In this document: positions 26,406 through 42,300 of the stretch, piece after piece | How the letters are laid out: every line of letters starts with the position of its first letter | How positions within the stretch are numbered: position 1 is the stretch's first letter | Sequence record: KX130863 | Reading direction: 5' to 3' (one strand) | DNA length: 64,000 nucleotides | DNA from: Shigella phage SHSML-45 | Position numbers and translations under genes: made by a program | The notes under the pieces: model-generated | Told to the model about the DNA's origin: nothing | Database searches by the model: none | What the model saw: only the letters and a program-made list of their open reading frames with translations

Positions 26406-26489
26406 TTGGTGCATCGTGATGGATTTGAACCACCAACCCCGAAGGGCACGGATTTACAGACCGCTGCAATAGACATTCTGCCAACGATG
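26406..26489 (-). tRNA. tRNA-Tyr (anticodon GTA), long variable arm, CCA encoded
   Basis: 84 nt; variable-arm hairpin CCC-TTCG-GGG; anticodon loop CTGTAAA. Confidence 0.7.
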
Positions 26490-26570
26490 CACATTTAAAA
26501 GTATTCAAATACTAGTTTAAACACTTTTAAATATGTTTCCAAATTAGATAACTATTATACCAAGTTTTAA

Positions 26571-26618: not shown

Positions 26619-26894
26619 TTAGTCGAACTTAGGAGTGACAGTTAAGGAGAACGGAAGTTCAAAAACTTCTTCCCCCTCATTACTAACTGTAACTACACGA
26701 CCTTTAAGTTCAGACATTAAAATATCAATATCAGCTTTTGCATCTGGAGCCATGCCAGCTTCAACACATTTAGCTTTAACTTCCGGAAGGAGTTCTACAT
26801 CGTAGAAATAAAGCCATTCAATCTCACCTTCCCAGCCTTCCCAGGATTTACAGATTGCACTTTCAATACCAGTTGCTATAACACGATTTTGCAT
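26619..26894 (-). CDS. hypothetical protein (91 aa)
   Basis: ORF preceded by promoter and leader. Confidence 0.5.
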   Translation of the reverse strand: MQNRVIATGIESAICKSWEGWEGEIEWLYFYDVELLPEVKAKCVEAGMAPDAKADIDILMSELKGRVVTVSNEGEEVFELPFSLTVTPKFD

Positions 26895-26984: not shown

Positions 26985-27191
26985 CTAAACTCCAGATTCT
27001 TCGGCCAAGTCTAGACTAATAAGAGTTATAGCCATAATTGCCGCACCATGTTCTTTTTCCCCGGTGTTTTTAGCAGAGTCTATAATATCCTTAATCTGTT
27101 CGTAATAACTTTTTACTTCTTGTTCAATACCTGCCTCGGCTATCATGCCTTTAGTCATGATTCGTTGCATAGTAATTTCACGGTTAGCCAT
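26985..27191 (-). CDS. hypothetical protein (68 aa)
   Basis: ORF. Confidence 0.45.
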   Translation of the reverse strand: MANREITMQRIMTKGMIAEAGIEQEVKSYYEQIKDIIDSAKNTGEKEHGAAIMAITLISLDLAEESGV

Positions 27192-27557: not shown

Positions 27558-28076
27558 TTAGAAATTTAGCTTCATGGCAAGAAAATTTTTCAAGTTTTCG
27601 GTAGACATCTCATCCACATCTATAGGAGAAACAAACCCATTTAATTGTCTAGCAAACTTTTCGCCAGCAGGATCATTATCCCCAACAGCTACCAATTTAA
27701 AAGGTAGTAATTTCAATTGCTTTAATAGCGGTTTTCCTGGAGAAGAACCCAACATTGCTAGAGCAGGATACCCAGCATTATGTAATGCTACAGCCTTAAA
27801 TACAGATTCAGCAATTAATACTACTTTTTCATCCCCATTGAGAGTTTCTAGTCCCCATACACACTGTGTAGTAGAATAAGTAAAATATCTAGCTTCAAAG
27901 GGGCACTTACCATGACCTTTTGGAGCAGAAGGATTATAAGTCTGATAGCCTCTCAACATTCCAGAGAAGTCATACAATGGGACTGTTAGCCATCCTTCTG
28001 GGCTTAACCAGCAGTGATATTTATCTGTATCAAACCCTCTAGATAAGAGATGTTCTGTTAGTTCATCAATAGTCAT
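27558..28076 (-). CDS. hypothetical protein with Toprim-like motif (start at internal Met behind the conserved leader)
   Basis: VVLIAESVF..AVGDNDPAG resembles Toprim acidic motifs; leader ATAAATTTGAGAGAGG precedes the ATG. Confidence 0.5.
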   Translation of the reverse strand: MTIDELTEHLLSRGFDTDKYHCWLSPEGWLTVPLYDFSGMLRGYQTYNPSAPKGHGKCPFEARYFTYSTTQCVWGLETLNGDEKVVLIAESVFKAVALHNAGYPALAMLGSSPGKPLLKQLKLLPFKLVAVGDNDPAGEKFARQLNGFVSPIDVDEMSTENLKNFLAMKLNF

Positions 28077-28297
28077 ACTAGATTCCTCTCTCAAATTTAT
28101 AAATATATTATGCAGAGAATTTAGCATTCAAGCAATTGAATTTTTTAACTTTTTAGAGGAAAATCACAGGATGCTTAAGGGTAGCAGGTAAGTGGGTAGA
28201 CCCCAAAATTGTTATCCCCACTTGATTTTCAATGTGATATAGTGTAAAGTATTTGTCATAGCTGAGTGACCAAAGAGACACACTTATCCTCTACCTT

Positions 28298-28337
28298 AAA
28301 ACAGAAAAGCCCTGCGCTCTCCAGGGAACACAGGGCT
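28298..28337 (-). terminator. intrinsic terminator (minus strand)
   Basis: AGCCCTG-loop-CAGGGCT stem followed on the minus strand by TTTTCTGTTTT. Confidence 0.6.
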
Positions 28338-28361
28338 TACTTCGAATATTACGTGTGGGAA

Positions 28362-29309
28362 TTACTTGTTACGCATATCCATAATCATCTGGCCATCGTA
28401 ACCAGTGCCAACTACTGTTTGAGGTACACCGCCTTGATATTTCTGAGCACGAATCATTTCAACTTCTAGTTGTTTCCAGCGAATCATCTCAGGAGTAATA
28501 GTACGTTGCAGAGCGGCGTTAGCTTCGGCTTCCTTCTTAGCTGCGTACAGTTTAGCATCTGCATCACGTTCGTTTGCAATAGCTTGGTTGTTACGAGCTT
28601 CACGATCTGCTTCTGCTTGTTTAACCTTCTGCTGTGCTTCTTGTTCAACACGAGCCAACTCAGCTTTCGCAGCATTAACTTGTTCCTCACGAACTTTGGT
28701 ATTCTGTACCTGTTCCACGATTACAGGCGGCAAAGTAATATCCTGAAGGAACACTTGCTTAACTGTGTAACCATAAGGGCGTGCATACTCTTCAACTTCC
28801 TGTTGAATTGCGGTTTGTAATTGAGCCTGGATTTTAGCATCAAACAAATCTTGTGCTTTAGGAACAGACTTACCGAACTCACGAATAGTGGACAGTAATT
28901 TTTCAGTTACATATTTGTCTAATGCTTGATCCTGGGTACCTGCGTTAATACGGTTAATCGGTGCCTTAGAACCATCAAACTGCAACATAACAGTCAGGTC
29001 AACAGTGGATTTAAACTTATCCTGACTAGGAACCTGAAGTTTATCTAATTTTACAGCAATGTCTTTTGTACTAAAAGTATCGAAAGATGCAAATGGGTTT
29101 ACAAGATGAAAACCAGGTAATACAGGATTAGGGTCTACTTTACCCAGAAATGTTTGGGTTTTAACCGTACCATCAGAAACAATAGTATATGAATTAAAAG
29201 CTAGGATTAAACCTGCTAAACCAACTACAGCACCAATACCCCAACGTTTAATAGTGCGAATTACTTTTTGCTCAGAAGTCAGTTCTTTCATATTTTTAGT
29301 ATTAAACAT
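28362..29309 (-). CDS. SPFH/band-7 (HflK/C-like) membrane protein
   Basis: N-terminal TM helix, SPFH-like core, long Ala/Glu/Gln-rich coiled-coil C-terminus. Confidence 0.65.
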   Translation of the reverse strand: MFNTKNMKELTSEQKVIRTIKRWGIGAVVGLAGLILAFNSYTIVSDGTVKTQTFLGKVDPNPVLPGFHLVNPFASFDTFSTKDIAVKLDKLQVPSQDKFKSTVDLTVMLQFDGSKAPINRINAGTQDQALDKYVTEKLLSTIREFGKSVPKAQDLFDAKIQAQLQTAIQQEVEEYARPYGYTVKQVFLQDITLPPVIVEQVQNTKVREEQVNAAKAELARVEQEAQQKVKQAEADREARNNQAIANERDADAKLYAAKKEAEANAALQRTITPEMIRWKQLEVEMIRAQKYQGGVPQTVVGTGYDGQMIMDMRNK

Positions 29310-29320
29310 ATATTTCCTTA

Positions 29321-29521
29321 TTATTTAGAAGAGTTAGCTACTACAGTTACTTTAGTTGCAGAAATAAACAGGCTAGCATCCACAGCAAATTCAGGAGCTT
29401 TGATATCTCCATTATGAAATATGACTATACCGGAGACTACTTCAAATGCTAGTGCTGTAACATCGGTGGTATTTACTTGTGAATGTTCACCTACTACTTT
29501 TACTATATATCGTGTTTTCAC
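29321..29521 (-). CDS. hypothetical protein (66 aa)
   Basis: ORF. Confidence 0.4.
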   Translation of the reverse strand: MKTRYIVKVVGEHSQVNTTDVTALAFEVVSGIVIFHNGDIKAPEFAVDASLFISATKVTVVANSSK

Positions 29522-29547: not shown

Positions 29548-29622
29548 TGGCCGAGGTGACAGGATTCGAACCTGCATAAAGGAATTTAGAAGACTCCTGC
29601 CTCTCCCTTAGACTACACCCCG
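29548..29622 (-). tRNA. tRNA-Arg (anticodon TCT), CCA encoded
   Basis: Acceptor CGGGGTG/CACCTCG, anticodon arm GGAGT-CTTCTAA-ATTCC, T-arm GCAGG-TTCGAAT-CCTGT. Confidence 0.7.
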
Positions 29623-30123
29623 TTTAAGTATTTTTAAGAACTCTCGTAAAAACTCTTAAAAATACAGACGATACCGGGAGAGTCATAAGTCTCACTCATT
29701 AAGTATTTCAAGACAAAATACAGTAACGTCTATTATTTTCCAGTTTAAGTCAAGGTGACTTAGTGGTTATGTCCTGCGGTATACTGAGGACTCGGTTAGG
29801 TTAGGGTCATGACTCCCCACCTTTTGCTGCTACTCAACAGGAGTTATCGCGAATTACCTGTGCTATTGTGCACCATTAGTGACATCTCTCATGTCAGCAT
29901 TTCCCACTTTGTGGATAGCTTGAAAAACTACTCCGATATGGAGAAAGAACTTCACTATCCTAGAATACCTTCTAAAGTTCTTCTTTAGCCTGGACATAGT
30001 TAAATCGTAATAAAACTATTCAGCAGACTGGTTGGTTAGTCTGGAACCAACTACCGCGTGGTTTAGGCAGTGCGCAACTAACCTCGGAAGCTTTTACGTT
30101 AAAAGCACCAGTTATCCAGTTCT

Positions 30124-30195
30124 TACCGACCGTAGGATTCGAACCTACATCTTCCACCAGTTACGGCTTGATAATACCGTTTATACTAGATCGGC
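30124..30195 (-). tRNA. tRNA-like element (anticodon arm unresolved, CCA not encoded)
   Basis: Canonical T-arm GTAGG-TTCGAAT-CCTAC and acceptor GCCGATC/GGTCGGT with two G-U pairs; no standard anticodon stem found. Confidence 0.35.
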
Positions 30196-30308
30196 AGTGT
30201 TACTACATAAGTGATTTCCACACCCCACTATTTATAAATTAGAGAAGAATTACTCTCTAATTTATGAATATATTATACAGAATTTATAAGCATTTAGCAA
30301 ATGAATTT

Positions 30309-30743
30309 TTAGAAAAACTCGCTAGCAATCAAGGCGGCTGTTTTACCATCATAACGCCCCGGAAACTCTGCCTTAATAGTTTTCATTAGGAGAGCTTTGG
30401 TAATACCTGGGTTTAGCTTAACCAATTCTGCAAAATATTTACGAATTTCAGTTTCAGTTAGCTGTTGTAGTGCATAATCATGCTCTAAACGCGCTAAAAG
30501 ATCTAAGTATTCAGCATCAGGAGTATAGTCAACATTCGATTTTTCAGCGGCAATCCGTGTATTCTCAATTGCTTTGAGTTGTGATTTCAACCAGTTAGTA
30601 AACTCCAGCTCAGTTACGCAATCTTTATCAATACGTTGCAGGTCTCCTAGAACCGTACTTAGATGCTTAACTGATACAGCGTCACCACTTTTGCGAGCAG
30701 CTTCAATCAACTCTCGCAGTACATAAAGCATGTTCATGCCCAT
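30309..30743 (-). CDS. hypothetical protein (144 aa)
   Basis: ORF. Confidence 0.55.
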   Translation of the reverse strand: MGMNMLYVLRELIEAARKSGDAVSVKHLSTVLGDLQRIDKDCVTELEFTNWLKSQLKAIENTRIAAEKSNVDYTPDAEYLDLLARLEHDYALQQLTETEIRKYFAELVKLNPGITKALLMKTIKAEFPGRYDGKTAALIASEFF

Positions 30744-30913
30744 TATTTCATCCCCAATGCTTGGTTAAAAGATTGTTCTGTCATAACTACTGAGACTTTG
30801 GCGAAATCAAACTTTTTAGGGTTCGTAGTGATCTCAGCAACGTTGGAAGTTTTAACAGTTTTCGTAGTACGAATACCGCGAGTGCTAACACCAATGACGA
30901 TCAAGTTTTTCAT
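30743..30913 (-). CDS. small hypothetical protein (56 aa), below the ORF track cutoff
   Basis: ATG preceded by GAGG and the conserved promoter-leader; stop overlaps next start (ATAATG). Confidence 0.4.
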   Translation of the reverse strand: MKNLIVIGVSTRGIRTTKTVKTSNVAEITTNPKKFDFAKVSVVMTEQSFNQALGMK

Positions 30914-30981: not shown

Positions 30982-31431
30982 TTAAGTTTTAGTGACAGCA
31001 GGCTTATAAAATGTATGTCCCTTAATCTTAGTTGTTTTCTTAAACTTCTTTGTCCAGTATGGTTTATCTTTACCACTATGGAAGTATAAAGCTCCATGTG
31101 TAGGATCTTGTGGTAAATCAACGTAGTATATCACTCTAGCTAAATTCTTGGCAGTTTGCCAAGCCTCATCGGTTTTATCAACTTTTGGTCTCTTAGATAC
31201 CCAAGAGAACTGGTTAGACTGATATACTACTTTACAGTAGGAATCTGGAAATTTGCCGGAGTTTACACGGTTTTTAGTAACCTGTGCAACCGCCATCATT
31301 CCCTTTATGCCCTCACCACGACTCTCGAAATAGATATTTTTAGCAATGCAATCTATTTCTTTTGCATCGTGCGATGCTTGACTACTAAAGCTGAAGGTAA
31401 GGGCAGCTACTAAAAGCAAAGCTGCCTTCAT
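30982..31431 (-). CDS. cell-wall hydrolase (SleB/Hydrolase_2-like) with signal peptide
   Basis: Signal peptide plus NIYFESRGE..VTKNRV motif. Confidence 0.6.
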   Translation of the reverse strand: MKAALLLVAALTFSFSSQASHDAKEIDCIAKNIYFESRGEGIKGMMAVAQVTKNRVNSGKFPDSYCKVVYQSNQFSWVSKRPKVDKTDEAWQTAKNLARVIYYVDLPQDPTHGALYFHSGKDKPYWTKKFKKTTKIKGHTFYKPAVTKT

Positions 31432-33651: not shown

Positions 33652-34353
33652 TCAAATTTTCATTTTTTCGATCATAGCTGCAACACAATAGCTCTCAACT
33701 AAGGCATCGAATGCTGGGTCATGTTTAACTGGGTAGATTCCATAACGAATGGTATCCATCTTCTCCATCTTAGCTTTTGCCCAGCTAATCCCCTCTGCTT
33801 CTAGGTCTTTGTAACTATAACCAGCCTGCATCCAGAGATTGCGGAGAGATCGAACATTACCCAAATTCCAGAATTTCCACGGAACTATTTCTTCATTGGT
33901 TCCAGCATGGAAAGTGTTTGCAGAGTAGATAGTCATATCAAACTCTGGGCCGTTGCCATAATACAAAGCATTCTCTCCTAGAGCCAACTCCATAATATTT
34001 TGAGCCATAGAGAAGGCAGCATAGTTTGAGCCTAATTTATTAGTGCAATGATGTTTACCATTTTGGAAGGCAATCAGTTTTGGATTACGTTCCTTCATAG
34101 CTTCCATAATGTGGATAGCAGACGGGCTATTTTTAGCTTGATCCATCCAGAATGCTAGAGTAGATGCTGTAACTTTGGCACCAGAATTAAGCTGATCCTG
34201 CACATCCAAAGTAACAAATACTAGATCAGGGTCTTTATCAACCCCATGCATAGCCACAAAAGCGAAAGAAGGCATTACGATATGAGTAGTACCACAATCT
34301 CCTGGAGTTCCTAGAGATTCAATATCTAGCATACCAAATGGTTTTACTTTCAT
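33652..34353 (-). CDS. putative DnaQ-like 3-prime to 5-prime exonuclease (DEDDh)
   Basis: LDIESLG (Exo I-like) and HDPAFDA (Exo III-like) motifs. Confidence 0.55.
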   Translation of the reverse strand: MKVKPFGMLDIESLGTPGDCGTTHIVMPSFAFVAMHGVDKDPDLVFVTLDVQDQLNSGAKVTASTLAFWMDQAKNSPSAIHIMEAMKERNPKLIAFQNGKHHCTNKLGSNYAAFSMAQNIMELALGENALYYGNGPEFDMTIYSANTFHAGTNEEIVPWKFWNLGNVRSLRNLWMQAGYSYKDLEAEGISWAKAKMEKMDTIRYGIYPVKHDPAFDALVESYCVAAMIEKMKI

Positions 34354-39366: not shown

Positions 39367-42300
39367 TATAACTGACAGCCTCCTGATGCACAGCCTACTG
39401 CTTCTTCACCAGCTCCACCACCATTTTCAGTATTAAAATTAGCATAATACCAAGTTTTTATACCATACTTAACAGCGATCATGAAGTCACGAACTACTAC
39501 TGGGCCTGGAATGATTTCATTCTCGAATTTAGAGTAGTCATAATACGACTGGAAGCTTGAAGACTGATTCAGGAACTTCTGGTAAACAGCATTCCACTTA
39601 ATATACTCTACCCTATCAATGTCATAAGCCAGTTTATAGCTCATTAATGTATCCCAATCAGTTGCACCTGGAGCAATTGCAATTACTTTATTCACTGCAC
39701 TACCCTTGATAGATACGATCTTACGGGGCGGTTCGATAGAGTTAGTAACACCTAGCAGTACAGAGGAACTTTCACCTGGCATCTGAGCAGTCAGAACAGA
39801 GTTGCGCATACCATATTTCAGAATATCTGCACGCAGAGATTCCCAATCCATTTCTAGACCTACAGTTACCAGTTCATCAACAGTTTTCTTGTACGTGTCG
39901 ATTACCAGAGTTCCTTGCGAAGGCTTAGTACGATTAAACCAGTCACATGCACCTTGTTCTTTAGCCAGACGTACAGAGGCTTTATGTAGGAAGTAGGACA
40001 GCTTTTCAGCTTCACGGTGAATCCAGTTACGGGCTTCAACACCTTCGTAAGCCAAACCTTCTGCTGCCATTGCACCTGCTGCGTTCATCAGACCAATACC
40101 AACGTTACGACGTTTCTTAGCCGTGTACTCCATAGTTGGGAATGGGTAATCCTGAATCTCGATGATTGTATCAACGAATTTCAGAAGAATGTAGCAAGTT
40201 TTCTCCCATTCAGCCAGAGATTCCATACGACCTAGTACAACACCACCTAAGTTACACAGAGATACTTCACCAATATCTTCTGGACGCATATCGTCTAACT
40301 GATCTTGGGTCTTATACAGCTCCATAATGTGATGGAATGGACGGGTTGGCTGAGTAATTTCAACACAAAGGTTGGTCATACGAATCGGGTCAAGGAAGTT
40401 ACCATGACGGTTAGATTCACCAATGTGATGAGCATACATACGCCCTGTTTCCATACGGATACGTAACCAAGTATCTAGGATTTCTTTTGCAGAGATTCTA
40501 GGAGCTGCTGGAATTGTTTTTCCTTCGTGGTCGATCTTTGTAAGAGAAGCCACACGTTTCTCCGCTGCCACGTAGATTTCTTCAAACTTAGCCTCATCTT
40601 CGCCATAAAACGCTTCATGAACTTCTGGTGCGTAGAAGTATGACATTAGCGTAATATCTTCATTTTTCAGATAACGTTTTAACAAAAGATTGTTGAAGCT
40701 CAGAGAATAATCCATCTTATCGATTTTATTCTCGTCTGTAGCACGTTGTTGCTTAACCTGCATCAACTGGATGATTTCAGGGTCAAAGTAAGGATAGGAT
40801 ACAGTAGCAGAACCACCACGGCTATTACCACAGACTATGGTATGCCCGTTACGGCGCACTACTAACTTATTGGTGGGTACTTCCACACAATAAACTTTAC
40901 CAATATACTCAACTTCAGTTTCCTTGATACCCTCTGCTGTCATATCTAGTTGGTCAAAATAGACATAGCAACGGTCTTTAGTGCTTGTATTTGAGCGTAA
41001 TCCAGCAATTGCTGCTAGAGCCTGCACCACATGTTGTTGCCCTGCGTGGCTTGAGTATTCTCCAACATTTTCGGATTTCCAGTACCCATCCCACTCCATG
41101 ATTTCTTTCAATGCTTCTTTCGCAGCATTAGATGTTAAATCCTTCTCTAGCAGGAAAGATAAGTCTTTCGAATAGTATAGCTGCCCATGCCCAATATGAA
41201 TGGTAGTTACACCTTGTTCATTTAGCTTCTTAGAATATTTAAGACCTAAATCATCTAGGATATGTACTAAACGATCTACCTTGCGTTGCTTTTTAAATCC
41301 GAAACGATACGCTCTACCTGTATTTGTTTCTACGATTGAACCATCAGCCTGCAATGCAATACGGAAGCGGTCTAGCATGGTGATAGTATCAGTACCATTT
41401 GTTTTCTGCGCTGAACCAAAATCTAGTGCATGGGTTCTTTTTGGTTGCCAATCTTCTGCTAGGATTTTCTGATACCCAGGTTTACGTTGGATATTCTTAT
41501 TATTATACGATACTTGACGGTATACCATAGTATGGTTAGGGGTTACTAGAAGATCTACCCCTCTTTTCTCGAAACGTAACATTGTACCTTCGTAATCATA
41601 CTCGAACACATTAAGAGGTAATACCCATTCTAACCCCCTACTATCAGTAATCTGAGCGACTAACTCATCTCCAGTAAGTTCTGAGAATAACTTCCAACCA
41701 TTCTTAGTTAAGACTTCAGTATCCTCGGAGTAGCACTGTTGGGTATTTGCCTTTACTGAGCGGTCAATGTGTCGATAATATGGCAGTTTTCCGGAATGCG
41801 GGAATGCCCCATTTCGCACCGGATCAGCAATTGATCGGCTTTCAAGATGATACCCGATTCCCGCTCTGGCTGCGACCATTTTGAAGACGATGTGCTCGGC
41901 TGTGTCGATTGAATCCAACGTGTCAGTGGAATCCACGAGGCAGCAACTAGCAAATCCACGGTCACTAGAACGCAAACCAACCAGTGGCGGCGTAGGAACG
42001 TTGATTTTGTGGAGCGACATTGCATTGTAGAGATCGATTGCATCTAGAATTGTCCAGTTGGGTTGAGATAACATCGCCATTGCCATGCCCATATAGGCAA
42101 ATTGCGGGGTTTCGTAAATTTCACCAGTGGCTATATTACGACGGGAATATTTATCAAAGAACTGTTTCAGTCCACCACTAGTAAAAAGACGGTCACGATC
42201 GTGGTCTATAACCTGATTCAGAGCTTCAAATTGCTCATCGGTAATCCATGCACTCATGTCTTCCCATGCACCTACACTAACCATATGATCGTGGAAGAAG

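What the first reader, a model, noticed from the sequence alone, without database searches (positions are those of the whole stretch)
28362..29309. Phage-encoded SPFH/band-7 (HflK/C-like) membrane protein
315-aa product with an N-terminal TM helix, an SPFH-like core and a long Ala/Glu/Gln-rich coiled-coil tail, transcribed with tRNAs from the early block. Host HflK/C modulate FtsH protease; a phage homolog could interfere with host membrane proteolysis or superinfection.
Basis: inference. Interest (0 to 1): 0.45.

Follow-up and report, generated by a model that had tools for sequence, protein, structure and literature searches.

The report
Phage T5-family SPFH membrane protein gene
This is a real, well-conserved gene of T5-like phages for a membrane-anchored SPFH (band 7) protein; the domain has been annotated since about 2004, the gene is dispensable in the laboratory, and its function is still unknown, so the finding is correct but not new.

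Summary
The window is Salmonella phage Shivani, a T5-like phage. The ORF at 28362..29309 (-), 315 aa, is gp161, the ortholog of T5 T5p078 / ORF075 / T5.080.

**Confirmed:**
- One N-terminal TM helix.
- A Pfam Band_7 domain (E 3.4e-17).
- A 76-residue Ala/Glu/Gln-rich helix.
- A predicted fold that matches full-length SPFH cage protomers (erlin, prohibitin, HflK/C, stomatin, QmcA).
- Co-transcription with tRNA-Arg from a promoter identical to T5 P16-17, ending at a conserved terminator.

**Not supported:**
- It is not an HflK or HflC ortholog. The curated models do not match, there is no paralog pair, and QmcA and prohibitin score better.
- It has no cysteine, so the database label 'lipoprotein' is wrong.

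**Context:**
- The gene is dispensable in the laboratory. It is deleted in T5 st0 and in BF23, and it scored 'Not Fit' in a T5 CRISPRi-ART screen.
- It is still kept in nearly all T5-like genomes and is under purifying selection.
- It also occurs in T4-like and 7-11-like phages and in some Gammaproteobacteria.
- It lies next to mapped anti-retron genes.

The most likely mechanism is a homo-oligomeric SPFH ring on the periplasmic face of the host inner membrane, giving a conditional benefit. That mechanism is inferred, not shown. The band 7 annotation dates from about 2004, so interest is low to moderate.

The parts
30272..30300 (-). Sigma-70-type promoter TTGCTA-17-TATAAT, the homolog of T5 early-region promoter P16-17. 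It starts the transcription unit.
   Evidence: Consensus scan, 10 of 12 matches. 74 of 74 nt identical to the annotated T5 P16-17 (T5 annotation).
29623..30271 (-). Leader region homologous to T5 'RNAX'. It contains a tRNA-like element (30123..30196) that ARAGORN calls tRNA-Ser(act) and one T5 record marks as a pseudo-tRNA.
   Evidence: Part of the 2.8-kb region that is 95-96% identical to T5.
29548..29622 (-). tRNA-Arg (anticodon TCT), co-transcribed upstream of the SPFH gene.
   Evidence: ARAGORN. Same position as tRNA-Arg in T5 and SP15.
29321..29521 (-). Shivani gp160, a 66-aa beta-rich ORF 11 nt upstream of the SPFH gene. It is lineage-specific and not an obligate partner.
   Evidence: Present in 193 T5-like records but not in T5 or SP15. 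No Pfam or PADLOC hit. The AF2 model was unusable at pLDDT 41.8.
29315..29319 (-). Ribosome-binding site AAGGA of the SPFH gene.
   Evidence: Sequence read. Annotated RBS in the Shivani record.
28362..29309 (-). SPFH/Band-7 protein gene (315 aa plus stop). It is Shivani gp161, T5 T5p078 / ORF075 / T5.080 and SP15 ORF078.
29187..29243 (-). Codons for the N-terminal transmembrane helix (about aa 23-41), preceded by a K/R-rich N-terminus (aa 1-22).
   Evidence: Hydropathy and flank charges. N-flank K/R exceeds C-flank K/R in 40 of 48 family members. AF2 helix 12-38.
28635..29156 (-). Codons for the SPFH/Band_7 domain (aa 52-225 by Pfam; alpha/beta core aa 41-192 in the model).
   Evidence: The invariant motif VPSQDKxK (aa 93-100) is conserved across 28 homologs.
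28440..28727 (-). Codons for the long helical region (aa 195-270 and 273-290). This corresponds to the wall and cap helices of solved SPFH cages.
   Evidence: Highly conserved in the family.
28365..28439 (-). Codons for the C-terminal segment (aa 291-315). Confidence is low in the monomer model, but the sequence is conserved (YxGGVPxTVVG...MDMR).
28297..28338 (-). Intrinsic terminator (13-bp stem, 6-nt loop, T-run) 24 nt after the stop codon. It is identical to T5, where one record annotates a terminator over this hairpin. The T5 major single-strand nick (32.6%) maps inside the hairpin, at about 28317/28318.
   Evidence: with T5 annotations.

Best explanation
The ORF is the Shivani ortholog of T5 gene T5.080 (T5p078 / ORF075). 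It is an early-transcribed accessory gene for a single-pass inner-membrane protein of the SPFH/Band-7 superfamily.

**Shown here:**
- The ORF, the TM helix, the Band_7 domain, the long conserved helix, and a predicted fold that aligns over its full length with solved SPFH cage protomers.
- Strong purifying selection.
- A transcription unit shared with tRNA-Arg.
- Spread across three families of virulent phages, with relatives in a few Gammaproteobacteria.
- Dispensability for laboratory growth.

**Inferred:**
- The K/R-rich N-terminus stays in the cytoplasm, so the SPFH domain faces the periplasm, as in HflK/C.
- The protein homo-oligomerises through its long helices and C-terminal segment into a ring or cage that fences off a patch of the host inner membrane.
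- By doing so it alters the access or behaviour of membrane proteins inside the patch. Candidates are a quality-control protease such as FtsH, or a membrane-acting host or phage factor.
- The benefit is conditional, appearing with certain hosts, defence systems or envelope stress. That would explain why the gene is lost without cost in laboratory stocks yet kept in nearly all natural isolates.

It is a separate small SPFH clade, not an HflK or HflC ortholog and not a lipoprotein.
For: **Identity and architecture:**
- Pfam Band_7, E 3.4e-17.
- AF2 model, pLDDT 78.5: TM helix, alpha/beta core, 76-residue helix.
- Foldseek full-length matches at E 1e-14 to 1e-10 to erlin1/2, PHB1/2, HflK/C, stomatin and QmcA cage protomers.

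**Topology:**
- 6 K/R before the TM and 1 in the 15 residues after it.
- The same bias in 40 of 48 family members.
- E. coli HflK/C face the periplasm and have no nfeD partner, whereas QmcA and YqiK face the cytoplasm and do have one (PMC10434171).

**Homo-oligomer:** there is no second SPFH gene in the 64-kb window.

**Constraint and retention:**
- 32 synonymous against 3 non-synonymous codon differences from T5.
- SPFH at >=80% identity in 437 phage records, against 443 records with DNA polymerase at >=80% identity.
- 57-78% identity to homologs in Straboviridae and Grimontviridae.

**Dispensability:**
- The T5 st0 genome joins T5p066 to T5p079, so T5p078 is absent.
- BF23 lost ORF071-075 (PMC10644984).
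- The CRISPRi-ART T5 screen scored T5.080 'Not Fit' with 7 guides (PMC11879866 supplement).

**Neighbourhood:**
- The adjacent Toprim gene is 98% identical to T5 Rad, an anti-retron protein (10.1101/2023.03.15.532788).
- tRNA-Tyr, which counters retron-Eco7, lies 1.9 kb away (PMC11555353).

**Early co-transcription with tRNA-Arg:**
Against: - Oligomerisation, membrane insertion, orientation and any client protein are all unverified. Orientation rests only on the positive-inside rule.
- The best sequence match in the PDB is QmcA, which faces the cytoplasm.
- No conserved gene partner was found in phages or bacteria that would point to a client.
- The published version of the T5 island paper reports few known anti-defence genes in the region. 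Only fragments F6 and F8 of nine rescued phage from retrons Eco2 and Eco7. If the SPFH gene was in one of the other fragments, it does not counter those retrons.
- PADLOC gave no hit.
- No phenotype of any kind has been reported for the gene.
Confidence: 0.6

Rival explanations
1. FtsH-modulator mimic. The phage SPFH ring replaces or competes with host HflK/C around FtsH. That would change degradation of membrane or regulatory substrates during infection. This is a specific version of the best explanation.
For: - Predicted periplasm-facing type II topology and no NfeD partner, as for HflK/C (PMC10434171).
- The fold aligns over its full length with HflK and HflC chains from FtsH complexes (7vhq, 7wi3, 9cz2).
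- Prohibitins, which also score well, partner with AAA proteases (established knowledge).
Against: - No match to the HflK or HflC equivalog models.
- HflK is absent and HflC marginal in sequence-profile searches.
- It is a single gene, not a pair.
- All carrier phages are virulent, so the classical lambda CII/lysogeny logic does not apply.
- No ftsH or other protease gene lies near the cellular homologs examined.
Confidence: 0.15
2. Counter-defence factor. The protein protects the infected cell's inner membrane or neutralises a membrane-associated or other host defence system, as its neighbours Rad and tRNA-Tyr do for retrons.
For: - The gene lies directly beside Rad and within the roughly 8-kb deletable region first named the 'Anti-Defense Island'.
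- BF23's loss of ORF071-075 was interpreted by its authors as loss of an anti-defence locus.
- T5n, which lacks the region, also plated worse on AVAST 2, and the determinant was not mapped.
- The gene is dispensable on defence-poor laboratory hosts but retained in nature.
- It is shared horizontally among unrelated virulent phages.
Against: - This is guilt by association only.
- The published paper renamed the region 'tRNA-rich region' and found few known anti-defence genes in it. Only fragments F6 and F8 were active against retrons Eco2 and Eco7.
- In T4-like and 7-11-like phages the gene sits in different contexts with no known anti-defence neighbours.
- Chromosomal homologs in Morganellaceae and methylotrophs sit in housekeeping contexts.
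Confidence: 0.2
3. Lysis-timing or superinfection-exclusion factor. The ring acts on holin/antiholin behaviour or on incoming phage DNA at the inner membrane.
For: - In Pseudotevenvirus-type T4-like phages the gene directly follows rI (lysis inhibition) and its accessory gene.
- In an Aeromonas T4-like phage, rI lies 3 kb away.
- In a Vi01-like phage, a different and shorter SPFH gene neighbours an annotated superinfection-exclusion gene (PMC3220722).
- In Shivani and T5, a secreted SleB-like hydrolase gene lies 1.7 kb upstream.
Against: - T4-like synteny is conserved, so the rI adjacency counts as roughly one observation.
- In T5-likes and 7-11-likes no lysis gene is adjacent.
- T5 lacking the gene shows no reported plaque or lysis defect.
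Confidence: 0.1
4. The protein is oriented like QmcA, with the SPFH domain in the cytoplasm, and works as a stomatin/flotillin-type scaffold, perhaps with gp160 as a minimal NfeD-like partner.
For: - QmcA is the best sequence match among solved structures (E 1.6e-6 and 2.3e-7).
- A small beta-rich ORF lies immediately upstream in Shivani.
Against: - The positive-inside bias points the other way, in the query and in 40 of 48 relatives.
- gp160 has no NfeD (or any other) Pfam hit.
- gp160 is absent from T5, SP15 and all non-T5-like carriers.
- No NfeD gene is annotated next to the gene in other phages, and none was found among the lineage-conserved neighbours of cellular homologs that were scanned.
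Confidence: 0.12
5. It is a lipoprotein, as RefSeq and PHROG 200 label it.
For: - PHROG 200 is named 'lipoprotein' and matches at E 5e-86. Many RefSeq records carry the label.
- Two distant family members have a lipobox-like IGSC motif.
Against: The protein has no cysteine at all, so it has no lipobox and cannot be lipid-modified by the Lgt/Lsp pathway. 37 of the 48 family members examined also have no cysteine.
Confidence: 0.01

Closest known systems
T5 gene T5p078 / ORF075 / T5.080 (AAU09419, AAX12012) and its orthologs in T5-like phages
   Same: - 99% identical protein (3 substitutions), same length.
- Same flanking tRNA-Arg, promoter and terminator.
- Already annotated with PF01145, COG0330 and IPR001107.
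   Different: - Shivani has an extra 66-aa ORF (gp160) between tRNA-Arg and the gene.
- Shivani lacks the three plus-strand genes that T5 has between Rad and the SPFH gene.
E. coli HflK/HflC (FtsH-associated SPFH cage)
   Same: - Single N-terminal TM with a predicted N-in, periplasm-facing SPFH domain.
- SPFH core, long wall helix and C-terminal segment.
- No NfeD partner.
   Different: - One gene rather than a K/C pair.
- No match to the HflK or HflC equivalog models.
- Only 16-18% identity in structure alignments.
- No evidence of an FtsH link.
E. coli QmcA (stomatin-like SPFH, QmcA-YbbJ complex, PDB 8z5g)
   Same: - Best sequence match among solved structures (E 2.3e-7 over about 240 residues).
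- Similar length, and QmcA is likewise a single SPFH gene.
   Different: - QmcA faces the cytoplasm and is paired with the NfeD protein YbbJ (PMC10434171).
- The phage protein is predicted to face the periplasm and has no detectable NfeD neighbour.
Prohibitin PHB1/PHB2 and erlin1/2 cages (eukaryotic organelles)
   Same: - Top structural matches (E 1.7e-14 to 1e-12) over nearly the whole length.
- N-terminal anchor followed by the SPFH core and a long helix.
- Some databases call relatives 'prohibitin family protein'.
   Different: - 16-19% identity.
- Prohibitin and erlin form hetero-oligomers of two paralogs in eukaryotic membranes.
- No AAA-protease partner is known for the phage protein.
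Other viral SPFH proteins (jumbo phages, Vibrio, Rhizobium and Streptomyces phages, giant viruses)
   Same: Same fold and overall architecture (BFVD matches at E 1e-18 to 1e-12). Function is likewise unknown (PMC7760394).
   Different: Only 14-22% identity, so these are separate acquisitions or lineages of the superfamily.
Chromosomal homologs in Morganella/Providencia (57-59% identity) and in methylotrophic and other Gammaproteobacteria (31-41%)
   Same: Same length, TM, motifs and C-terminal segment. They fall in the same small clade in the exhaustive search and the tree.
   Different: They are cellular single genes in housekeeping or variable chromosomal contexts. Their function is also uncharacterised.

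Membership tests
SPFH / Band 7 superfamily (Pfam PF01145) | Match to the Band_7 profile above the curated gathering score | tested here: met
   63.5 bits against a cutoff of 23.6, E 3.4e-17, aa 52-225. All close homologs carry PF01145.
SPFH / Band 7 superfamily (Pfam PF01145) | Alpha/beta SPFH fold followed by a long helix and a C-terminal segment, as in solved cage protomers | tested here: met
   AF2 model with pLDDT 78.5. Foldseek full-length alignments to erlin, prohibitin, HflK/C, stomatin, QmcA and flotillin, probability 1.00.
SPFH / Band 7 superfamily (Pfam PF01145) | N-terminal membrane anchor | tested here: met
   Single hydrophobic segment at aa 23-41, present in all 48 relatives examined. 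This is a prediction only.
SPFH / Band 7 superfamily (Pfam PF01145) | Assembly into a large ring or cage on a membrane | not testable with these tools
   No multimer prediction or experiment was available. Inferred from conservation of the wall helix and C-terminal segment.
HflK / HflC (FtsH modulators) | Match to the curated HflK/HflC equivalog models (hflC is TIGR01932 in the output) | tested here: not met
   No hit for the query at E<=1 or E<=10. Only 2 of 28 family members touch hflC, weakly. In the PDB profile search HflC scores E 0.012 and HflK is absent.
HflK / HflC (FtsH modulators) | Two adjacent paralogous genes forming a hetero-oligomer | tested here: not met
   Only one SPFH gene in the 64-kb window, by tblastn and by family HMM. 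Single genes in the other phages and bacteria examined.
HflK / HflC (FtsH modulators) | Type II topology with the SPFH domain in the periplasm | tested here: inconclusive
   The positive-inside rule favours it (6 against 1 K/R; 40 of 48 relatives). No dedicated predictor or experiment was available.
HflK / HflC (FtsH modulators) | Physical and functional association with FtsH | not testable with these tools
   No data. No ftsH gene near any homolog examined.
Stomatin / QmcA-type SPFH-NfeD pair | Adjacent nfeD-family gene | tested here: not met
   No NfeD Pfam hit in gp160 or the other seven neighbouring ORFs. gp160 is absent from T5 and SP15. The structural test of gp160 failed at pLDDT 41.8.
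Stomatin / QmcA-type SPFH-NfeD pair | Closest sequence similarity to stomatin-family members | tested here: inconclusive
   QmcA is the best PDB sequence hit but only at E 1e-6 to 1e-7. Prohibitins are close behind, and fold ranking puts erlin and prohibitin first.
Bacterial lipoprotein (database label; PHROG 200) | Signal peptide ending in a lipobox with an invariant cysteine | tested here: not met
   Zero cysteines in the 315-aa protein.
Known anti-phage defence proteins (PADLOC) | Match to a defence-system protein model | tested here: not met
   No PADLOC family at E<=0.1.

The most novel reading that the evidence does not exclude
A virulent phage builds its own SPFH cage in the host inner membrane as a takeover or counter-defence device. 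It might, for example, enclose FtsH or a membrane-acting abortive-infection effector, or shield the membrane during the long latent period. The device would be traded horizontally among T5-like, T4-like and 7-11-like phages and even captured by Morganellaceae chromosomes. This would be the first assigned function for any viral SPFH protein, and a new class of determinant in the T5 deletable tRNA/anti-defence region.
Probability: 0.2. Interest if true: 0.65.

Novelty: already known. Interest (0 to 1): 0.3.

Why it matters
SPFH proteins are now known to form closed cages that fence off membrane microdomains, and several of them partner with membrane proteases. No viral member has an assigned function.

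This gene combines four properties that usually mark a conditional host-interaction or counter-defence gene:
- It is kept in nearly all T5-like phages.
- It is shared with T4-like and 7-11-like phages.
- It is dispensable on laboratory hosts.
- It sits beside mapped anti-retron determinants.

That makes it a cheap, well-defined experimental target in a model phage. As a sequence finding it adds little, because the domain has been on record for about twenty years. The practical corrections are that the widely propagated 'lipoprotein' label is wrong for this protein, and that 'HflK/C-like' overstates what the sequence shows.

Tried and rejected
1. **Lipoprotein label.** Rejected, because the protein has no cysteine.
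2. **HflK/HflC orthology.** Rejected on the curated models, the profile-versus-PDB ranking, and the absence of a paralog.
3. **NfeD partner.**
   - Pfam found nothing in gp160 or the neighbours.
   - A single-sequence AF2 model of gp160 was unusable at pLDDT 41.8.
   - gp160 is restricted to a subset of T5-likes.
4. **Defence-system homology.** PADLOC gave no hit.
5. **Conserved gene neighbours as a clue to function.**
   - No neighbour family, apart from a group of ABC-exporter-type proteins at varying positions, was shared beyond a single lineage among 16 bacterial loci.
   - Methylophagaceae copies follow trpFBA-accD-folC, and Methylococcaceae copies precede an oxidoreductase, a YcxB-like protein and an ABC-F protein.
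   - Morganella and Providencia contexts differ from each other.
   - Phage contexts differ between families.
6. **Context of more distant metagenomic relatives.** Contigs were too short or consisted of ORFans.
7. **Literature.** Nine searches found no functional study of this gene or of any phage SPFH protein. They found only annotation-level mentions. A 'prohibitin' hit in the CRISPRi-ART paper was the word 'prohibiting'.
8. **Virion component.** SPFH proteins were detected at low counts in mass spectrometry of jumbo and Vi01-like phage preparations. Those are different SPFH proteins, and the counts are compatible with membrane carry-over, so I did not pursue this.
9. **Fragment coverage in the TRR experiments.** I could not verify from text which of the nine TRR fragments of Azam et al. 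carried SP15 ORF078. The map is in a figure.
Full report
**Where the window comes from.** A 2.8-kb stretch around the finding is 99.9% identical to Salmonella phage Shivani (KP143763 / NC_028754; Demerecviridae, Tequintavirus). It is about 95-96% identical to coliphage T5 over 91% of its length. The ORF at 28362..29309 on the minus strand (ATG start, 315 aa) is Shivani gp161, annotated 'lipoprotein, band 7 domain'. The T5 ortholog is 99% identical and has several names:
- T5p078, 'putative membrane protease; contains band 7 family protein PF01145; COG0330' in AY734508.
- The 'putative transmembrane protein, IPR001107 band 7' in AY587007. This is ORF075 in that record's numbering, since it lies between ORF073/kapc and ORF076.
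- T5.080 in the re-annotation used by the CRISPRi-ART study.
- ORF078 in phage SP15.

**Checking the observation.**
- *TM helix.* One hydrophobic segment lies at about aa 23-41. The 22 N-terminal residues carry 6 K/R. The 15 residues after the segment carry 1.
- *SPFH core.* Pfam Band_7 matches aa 52-225 at E 3.4e-17 (63.5 bits; gathering score 23.6).
- *Helical tail.* Residues 206-275 are 26% Ala, 16% Glu and 10% Gln.
- *Predicted structure.* An AlphaFold2 model built on 28 diverse homologs has mean pLDDT 78.5. It shows helix 12-38, an alpha/beta core at 41-192, a single helix at 195-270, a helix at 273-290, and a low-confidence C-terminus.
- *Fold comparison.* Foldseek against the PDB returns full-length alignments (about 270-305 columns, probability 1.00) to protomers of solved SPFH cages. 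The E-values are: erlin1/2 1.7e-14; prohibitin 1/2 3e-13; HflK/C 3e-12 to 1e-9; stomatin 5e-12; QmcA 1.5e-10. Flotillin and major vault protein follow. All are at 13-20% identity.
- *Coding constraint.* Shivani and T5 differ at 35 of 948 nt, 32 of them in third codon positions. That gives 32 synonymous and 3 non-synonymous codon changes.

**Transcription unit.**
- The promoter-like site TTGCTA-17-TATAAT at 30300..30272 is identical over 74 nt to the promoter annotated P16-17 in T5.
- Downstream of it lie a region homologous to T5 'RNAX', which contains a tRNA-like element, then tRNA-Arg (29548..29622), a 66-aa ORF (gp160), an AAGGA ribosome-binding site, and the SPFH gene.
- A 13-bp-stem hairpin with a T-run at 28338..28307 starts 24 nt after the stop codon. 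It is identical to the T5 sequence at that position. One T5 record annotates a terminator over this hairpin. Both T5 records place the major single-strand nick (32.6%) there.
- So the statement 'transcribed with tRNAs from the early block' holds, as far as homology to the annotated T5 features can show.

**Which SPFH family?** The 'HflK/C-like' label does not survive testing.
- NCBIfam's HflK and HflC equivalog models do not match the protein, even at E<=10. Only 2 of 28 family members touch hflC weakly.
- A family profile searched against all PDB sequences finds QmcA (2.3e-7) and prohibitins (1e-4 to 1e-3). HflC appears only at E 0.012, through its N-terminal stretch. HflK does not appear at all at E<=10.
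- HflK/C is a pair of paralogs. The 64-kb window has one SPFH gene only, and the relatives examined elsewhere are also single genes.
- What the protein does share with HflK/C is the generic cage-protomer architecture, the predicted orientation, and the lack of an NfeD partner. On orientation, the positive-inside bias is seen in the query and in 40 of 48 relatives. E. coli HflK/C face the periplasm and lack an nfeD neighbour, whereas QmcA and YqiK face the cytoplasm and have one (PMC10434171).
- No NfeD domain was found in the eight neighbouring ORFs.
- The upstream 66-aa ORF gp160 is present in only 193 T5-like records and is absent from T5 and SP15. Its single-sequence structure model was unusable at pLDDT 41.8.
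- The common RefSeq/PHROG label 'lipoprotein' (PHROG 200, E 5e-86) cannot apply, because the protein has no cysteine.

**Distribution.**
- tblastn finds the gene in 724 phage records. T5-like phages have it at 90-100% identity. T4-like Straboviridae of Klebsiella, Enterobacter and Cronobacter (and, Escherichia) have it at about 73-78% identity, and those of Aeromonas at about 60%. Examples are Pseudotevenvirus leE and Tulanevirus 60AhydR15PP. From the protein search and alignment, RB43 aligns at 74-80% and Morganella phage vB_Mm5 at about 57%.
- Grimontviridae (Moazamivirus SE131 and 7-11) have it at 72% identity.
- An exhaustive HMMER pass over 1.84 billion cluster representatives gives only 934 hits at E<=1e-3 and 35 at E<=1e-30. 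This is a small, divergent branch of a very large superfamily.
- Cellular members exist. Morganella and Providencia chromosomes carry a 57-59% identical single gene in non-prophage contexts. Methylococcaceae, Methylophagaceae and other, mostly gammaproteobacterial, MAGs carry copies at 31-41% identity.
- In a neighbour-joining tree the Morganellaceae copies sit beside the enterobacterial phage clade, and the methylotroph copies form a separate, deeper bacterial clade. The direction of transfer is not resolved.
- Apart from a group of ABC-exporter-type proteins at varying positions, no neighbour family is shared beyond a single lineage. In Methylophagaceae the gene simply follows trpF-trpB-trpA-accD-folC. 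In T4-like phages it follows tk, rI and the rI accessory gene. In SE131 it lies between an ATPase gene and small ORFs.
- A fold search of the viral structure library shows that SPFH proteins are scattered through many phages and giant viruses. None has an assigned function (PMC7760394).

**Dispensability and neighbourhood.** Three independent lines show the gene is not needed on laboratory hosts:
- The complete genome of the T5 st0 deletion mutant joins the remnants of T5p066 and T5p079, so T5p067-T5p078 are absent. The AY734508 record gives the deletion endpoints as 33667-33683 and 41882-41891 of the wild type, and the gene lies at 39794..40738.
- The resequenced BF23 stock lacks ORF071-075 (PMC10644984).
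- The transcriptome-wide CRISPRi-ART screen of T5 scored T5.080 'Not Fit' (7 guides, mean fitness -4.28, p 0.85) (PMC11879866 supplement).

The gene is nevertheless retained in nature. It is found at >=80% identity in 437 records, against 443 records that have the DNA polymerase at >=80% identity. The two sets were not matched record by record.

Its immediate neighbours are functionally mapped:
- The adjacent Toprim 'DNA primase' (window 27558..28076) is 98% identical to the T5 protein. The SP15 ortholog of that protein, ORF75, was named Rad and neutralises several retrons.
- tRNA-Tyr (26407..26490) counters the tRNA-Tyr-cleaving PtuAB effector of retron-Eco7.
- According to the preprint, two small ORFs between tRNA-Tyr and Rad neutralise retron Ec83 (10.1101/2023.03.15.532788; PMC11555353; SP15 map).

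The preprint called the roughly 8-kb deletable region an 'Anti-Defense Island'. It noted that T5n, which lacks the region, also plates worse on AVAST 2, and the determinant for that was not mapped. The published paper is more cautious. It uses the name 'tRNA-rich region', reports few known anti-defence genes there, and found that only fragments F6 and F8 of nine rescued phage from retrons Eco2 and Eco7. I could not establish from the text which fragment carried the SPFH gene.

**Most likely mechanism.**
- *Shown:* an early, accessory, strongly constrained gene for a TM-anchored SPFH protein whose predicted fold matches complete cage protomers.
- *Inferred, from what is established for solved SPFH assemblies (HflK/C, QmcA, prohibitin, erlin, stomatin, flotillin):* the protein homo-oligomerises through its long helix and conserved C-terminal segment into a ring or cage. 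The cage sits on the periplasmic face of the host inner membrane and encloses a membrane patch.
- *Client and benefit:* which host or phage membrane protein it encloses or excludes is unknown. The benefit must be conditional, given the contrast between loss in the laboratory and retention in nature.
- *Specific versions, in my order of likelihood:* a counter-defence or membrane-protection role (0.2; association only), interference with FtsH-type quality control (0.15), and lysis-timing or exclusion roles (0.1).

**Novelty and score.**
- The gene and its band 7 domain have been annotated in T5 records whose accession numbers date them to about 2004. T4-like phage SPFH ORFs were tabulated in 2006 (PMC1524935). 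Recent Tequintavirus papers still state that the function is unknown (PMC12752171). The finding is therefore 'already known' as a feature.
- What this check adds:
  - It rejects the 'lipoprotein' and 'HflK/C' labels.
  - It gives a predicted topology.
  - It defines a small clade shared by phages and Gammaproteobacteria.
  - It assembles three independent lines of evidence for dispensability.
  - It places the gene next to mapped anti-retron genes.
- A specialist would find this a reasonable experimental target but not a surprise. Interest: 0.3.

Noticed in passing
window 27558..28076 (-) (ORF extends to 28127 with an upstream ATG): The neighbouring Toprim 'DNA primase' gene is 98% identical to T5p074/T5.076. 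Its SP15 ortholog (ORF75) was named Rad and shown to neutralise retrons. It is not a primase. CRISPRi-ART lists it as 'anti-defense, Semi-Fit'.
   Followed up: partly
window 26407..26490 (-), 26619..26894 (-), 26985..27191 (-): tRNA-Tyr is the T5-family counter to the retron-Eco7 PtuAB tRNase. Two small ORFs match SP15 ORF071 and ORF072 in size and position. The preprint reports that a pair of small ORFs in this fragment neutralises retron Ec83.
   Followed up: partly
window about 28317/28318, inside the hairpin 28307..28338: The T5 major single-strand nick (32.6% site) maps inside the terminator hairpin just after the SPFH gene. The hairpin sequence, including GGAGAGCGC, is identical in Shivani.
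   Followed up: partly
window 28077..28361: Only 285 nt separate Rad and the SPFH gene in Shivani. T5 and SP15 carry two or three extra plus-strand genes here (T5.077-079), with their own promoter. This is an indel hotspot between two conserved genes.
   Followed up: partly
window 29321..29521 (-): The 66-aa beta-rich ORF gp160 lies 11 nt upstream of the SPFH gene. It is found in 193 T5-like records (93-99% identical) but not in T5 or SP15. It has no family hit, and its structure prediction failed (pLDDT 41.8).
   Followed up: partly
window 30123..30196 (-): ARAGORN calls a tRNA-Ser with the odd anticodon ACT. The region is homologous to T5 'RNAX', and one T5 record marks a pseudo-tRNA there.
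   Followed up: no
window 30982..31431 (-): A SleB-like cell wall hydrolase (Pfam Hydrolase_2, E 1.4e-26) with an N-terminal signal-peptide-like sequence lies 1.7 kb upstream of the SPFH gene. The Shivani record labels it 'endolysin'.
   Followed up: no
window 30743..30913 (-): A 56-aa ORF matches DUF7616 over its full length (E 1.6e-29). It is a conserved small protein of unknown function.
   Followed up: no
L023 6159..10316 and L020 6758..7493 (Morganella chromosomes): The chromosomal SPFH homolog of Morganella lies directly upstream of a small gene with a sequence that looks like a double-glycine leader (microcin-like). In M. morganii (L023), genes that look like an HlyD-type protein and an ABC exporter follow; the exporter groups by BLAST with a Pfam-confirmed ABC-transporter protein. 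Providencia homologs have a different context.
   Followed up: no
L005 3274..4939, L073 2218..3900, L006 3106..4963: In T4-like phages the SPFH gene sits in the tk-rI region. In Cronobacter and Klebsiella phages it lies directly after rI (lysis inhibition) and its accessory gene. In an Aeromonas phage it lies one small ORF after tk.
   Followed up: partly
PHROG 200 / RefSeq annotations of homologs: The label 'lipoprotein' is propagated to hundreds of phage SPFH proteins that contain no cysteine. Only two distant members (Morganella phage vB_Mm5 and one metagenomic sequence) have a lipobox-like IGSC motif.
   Followed up: yes
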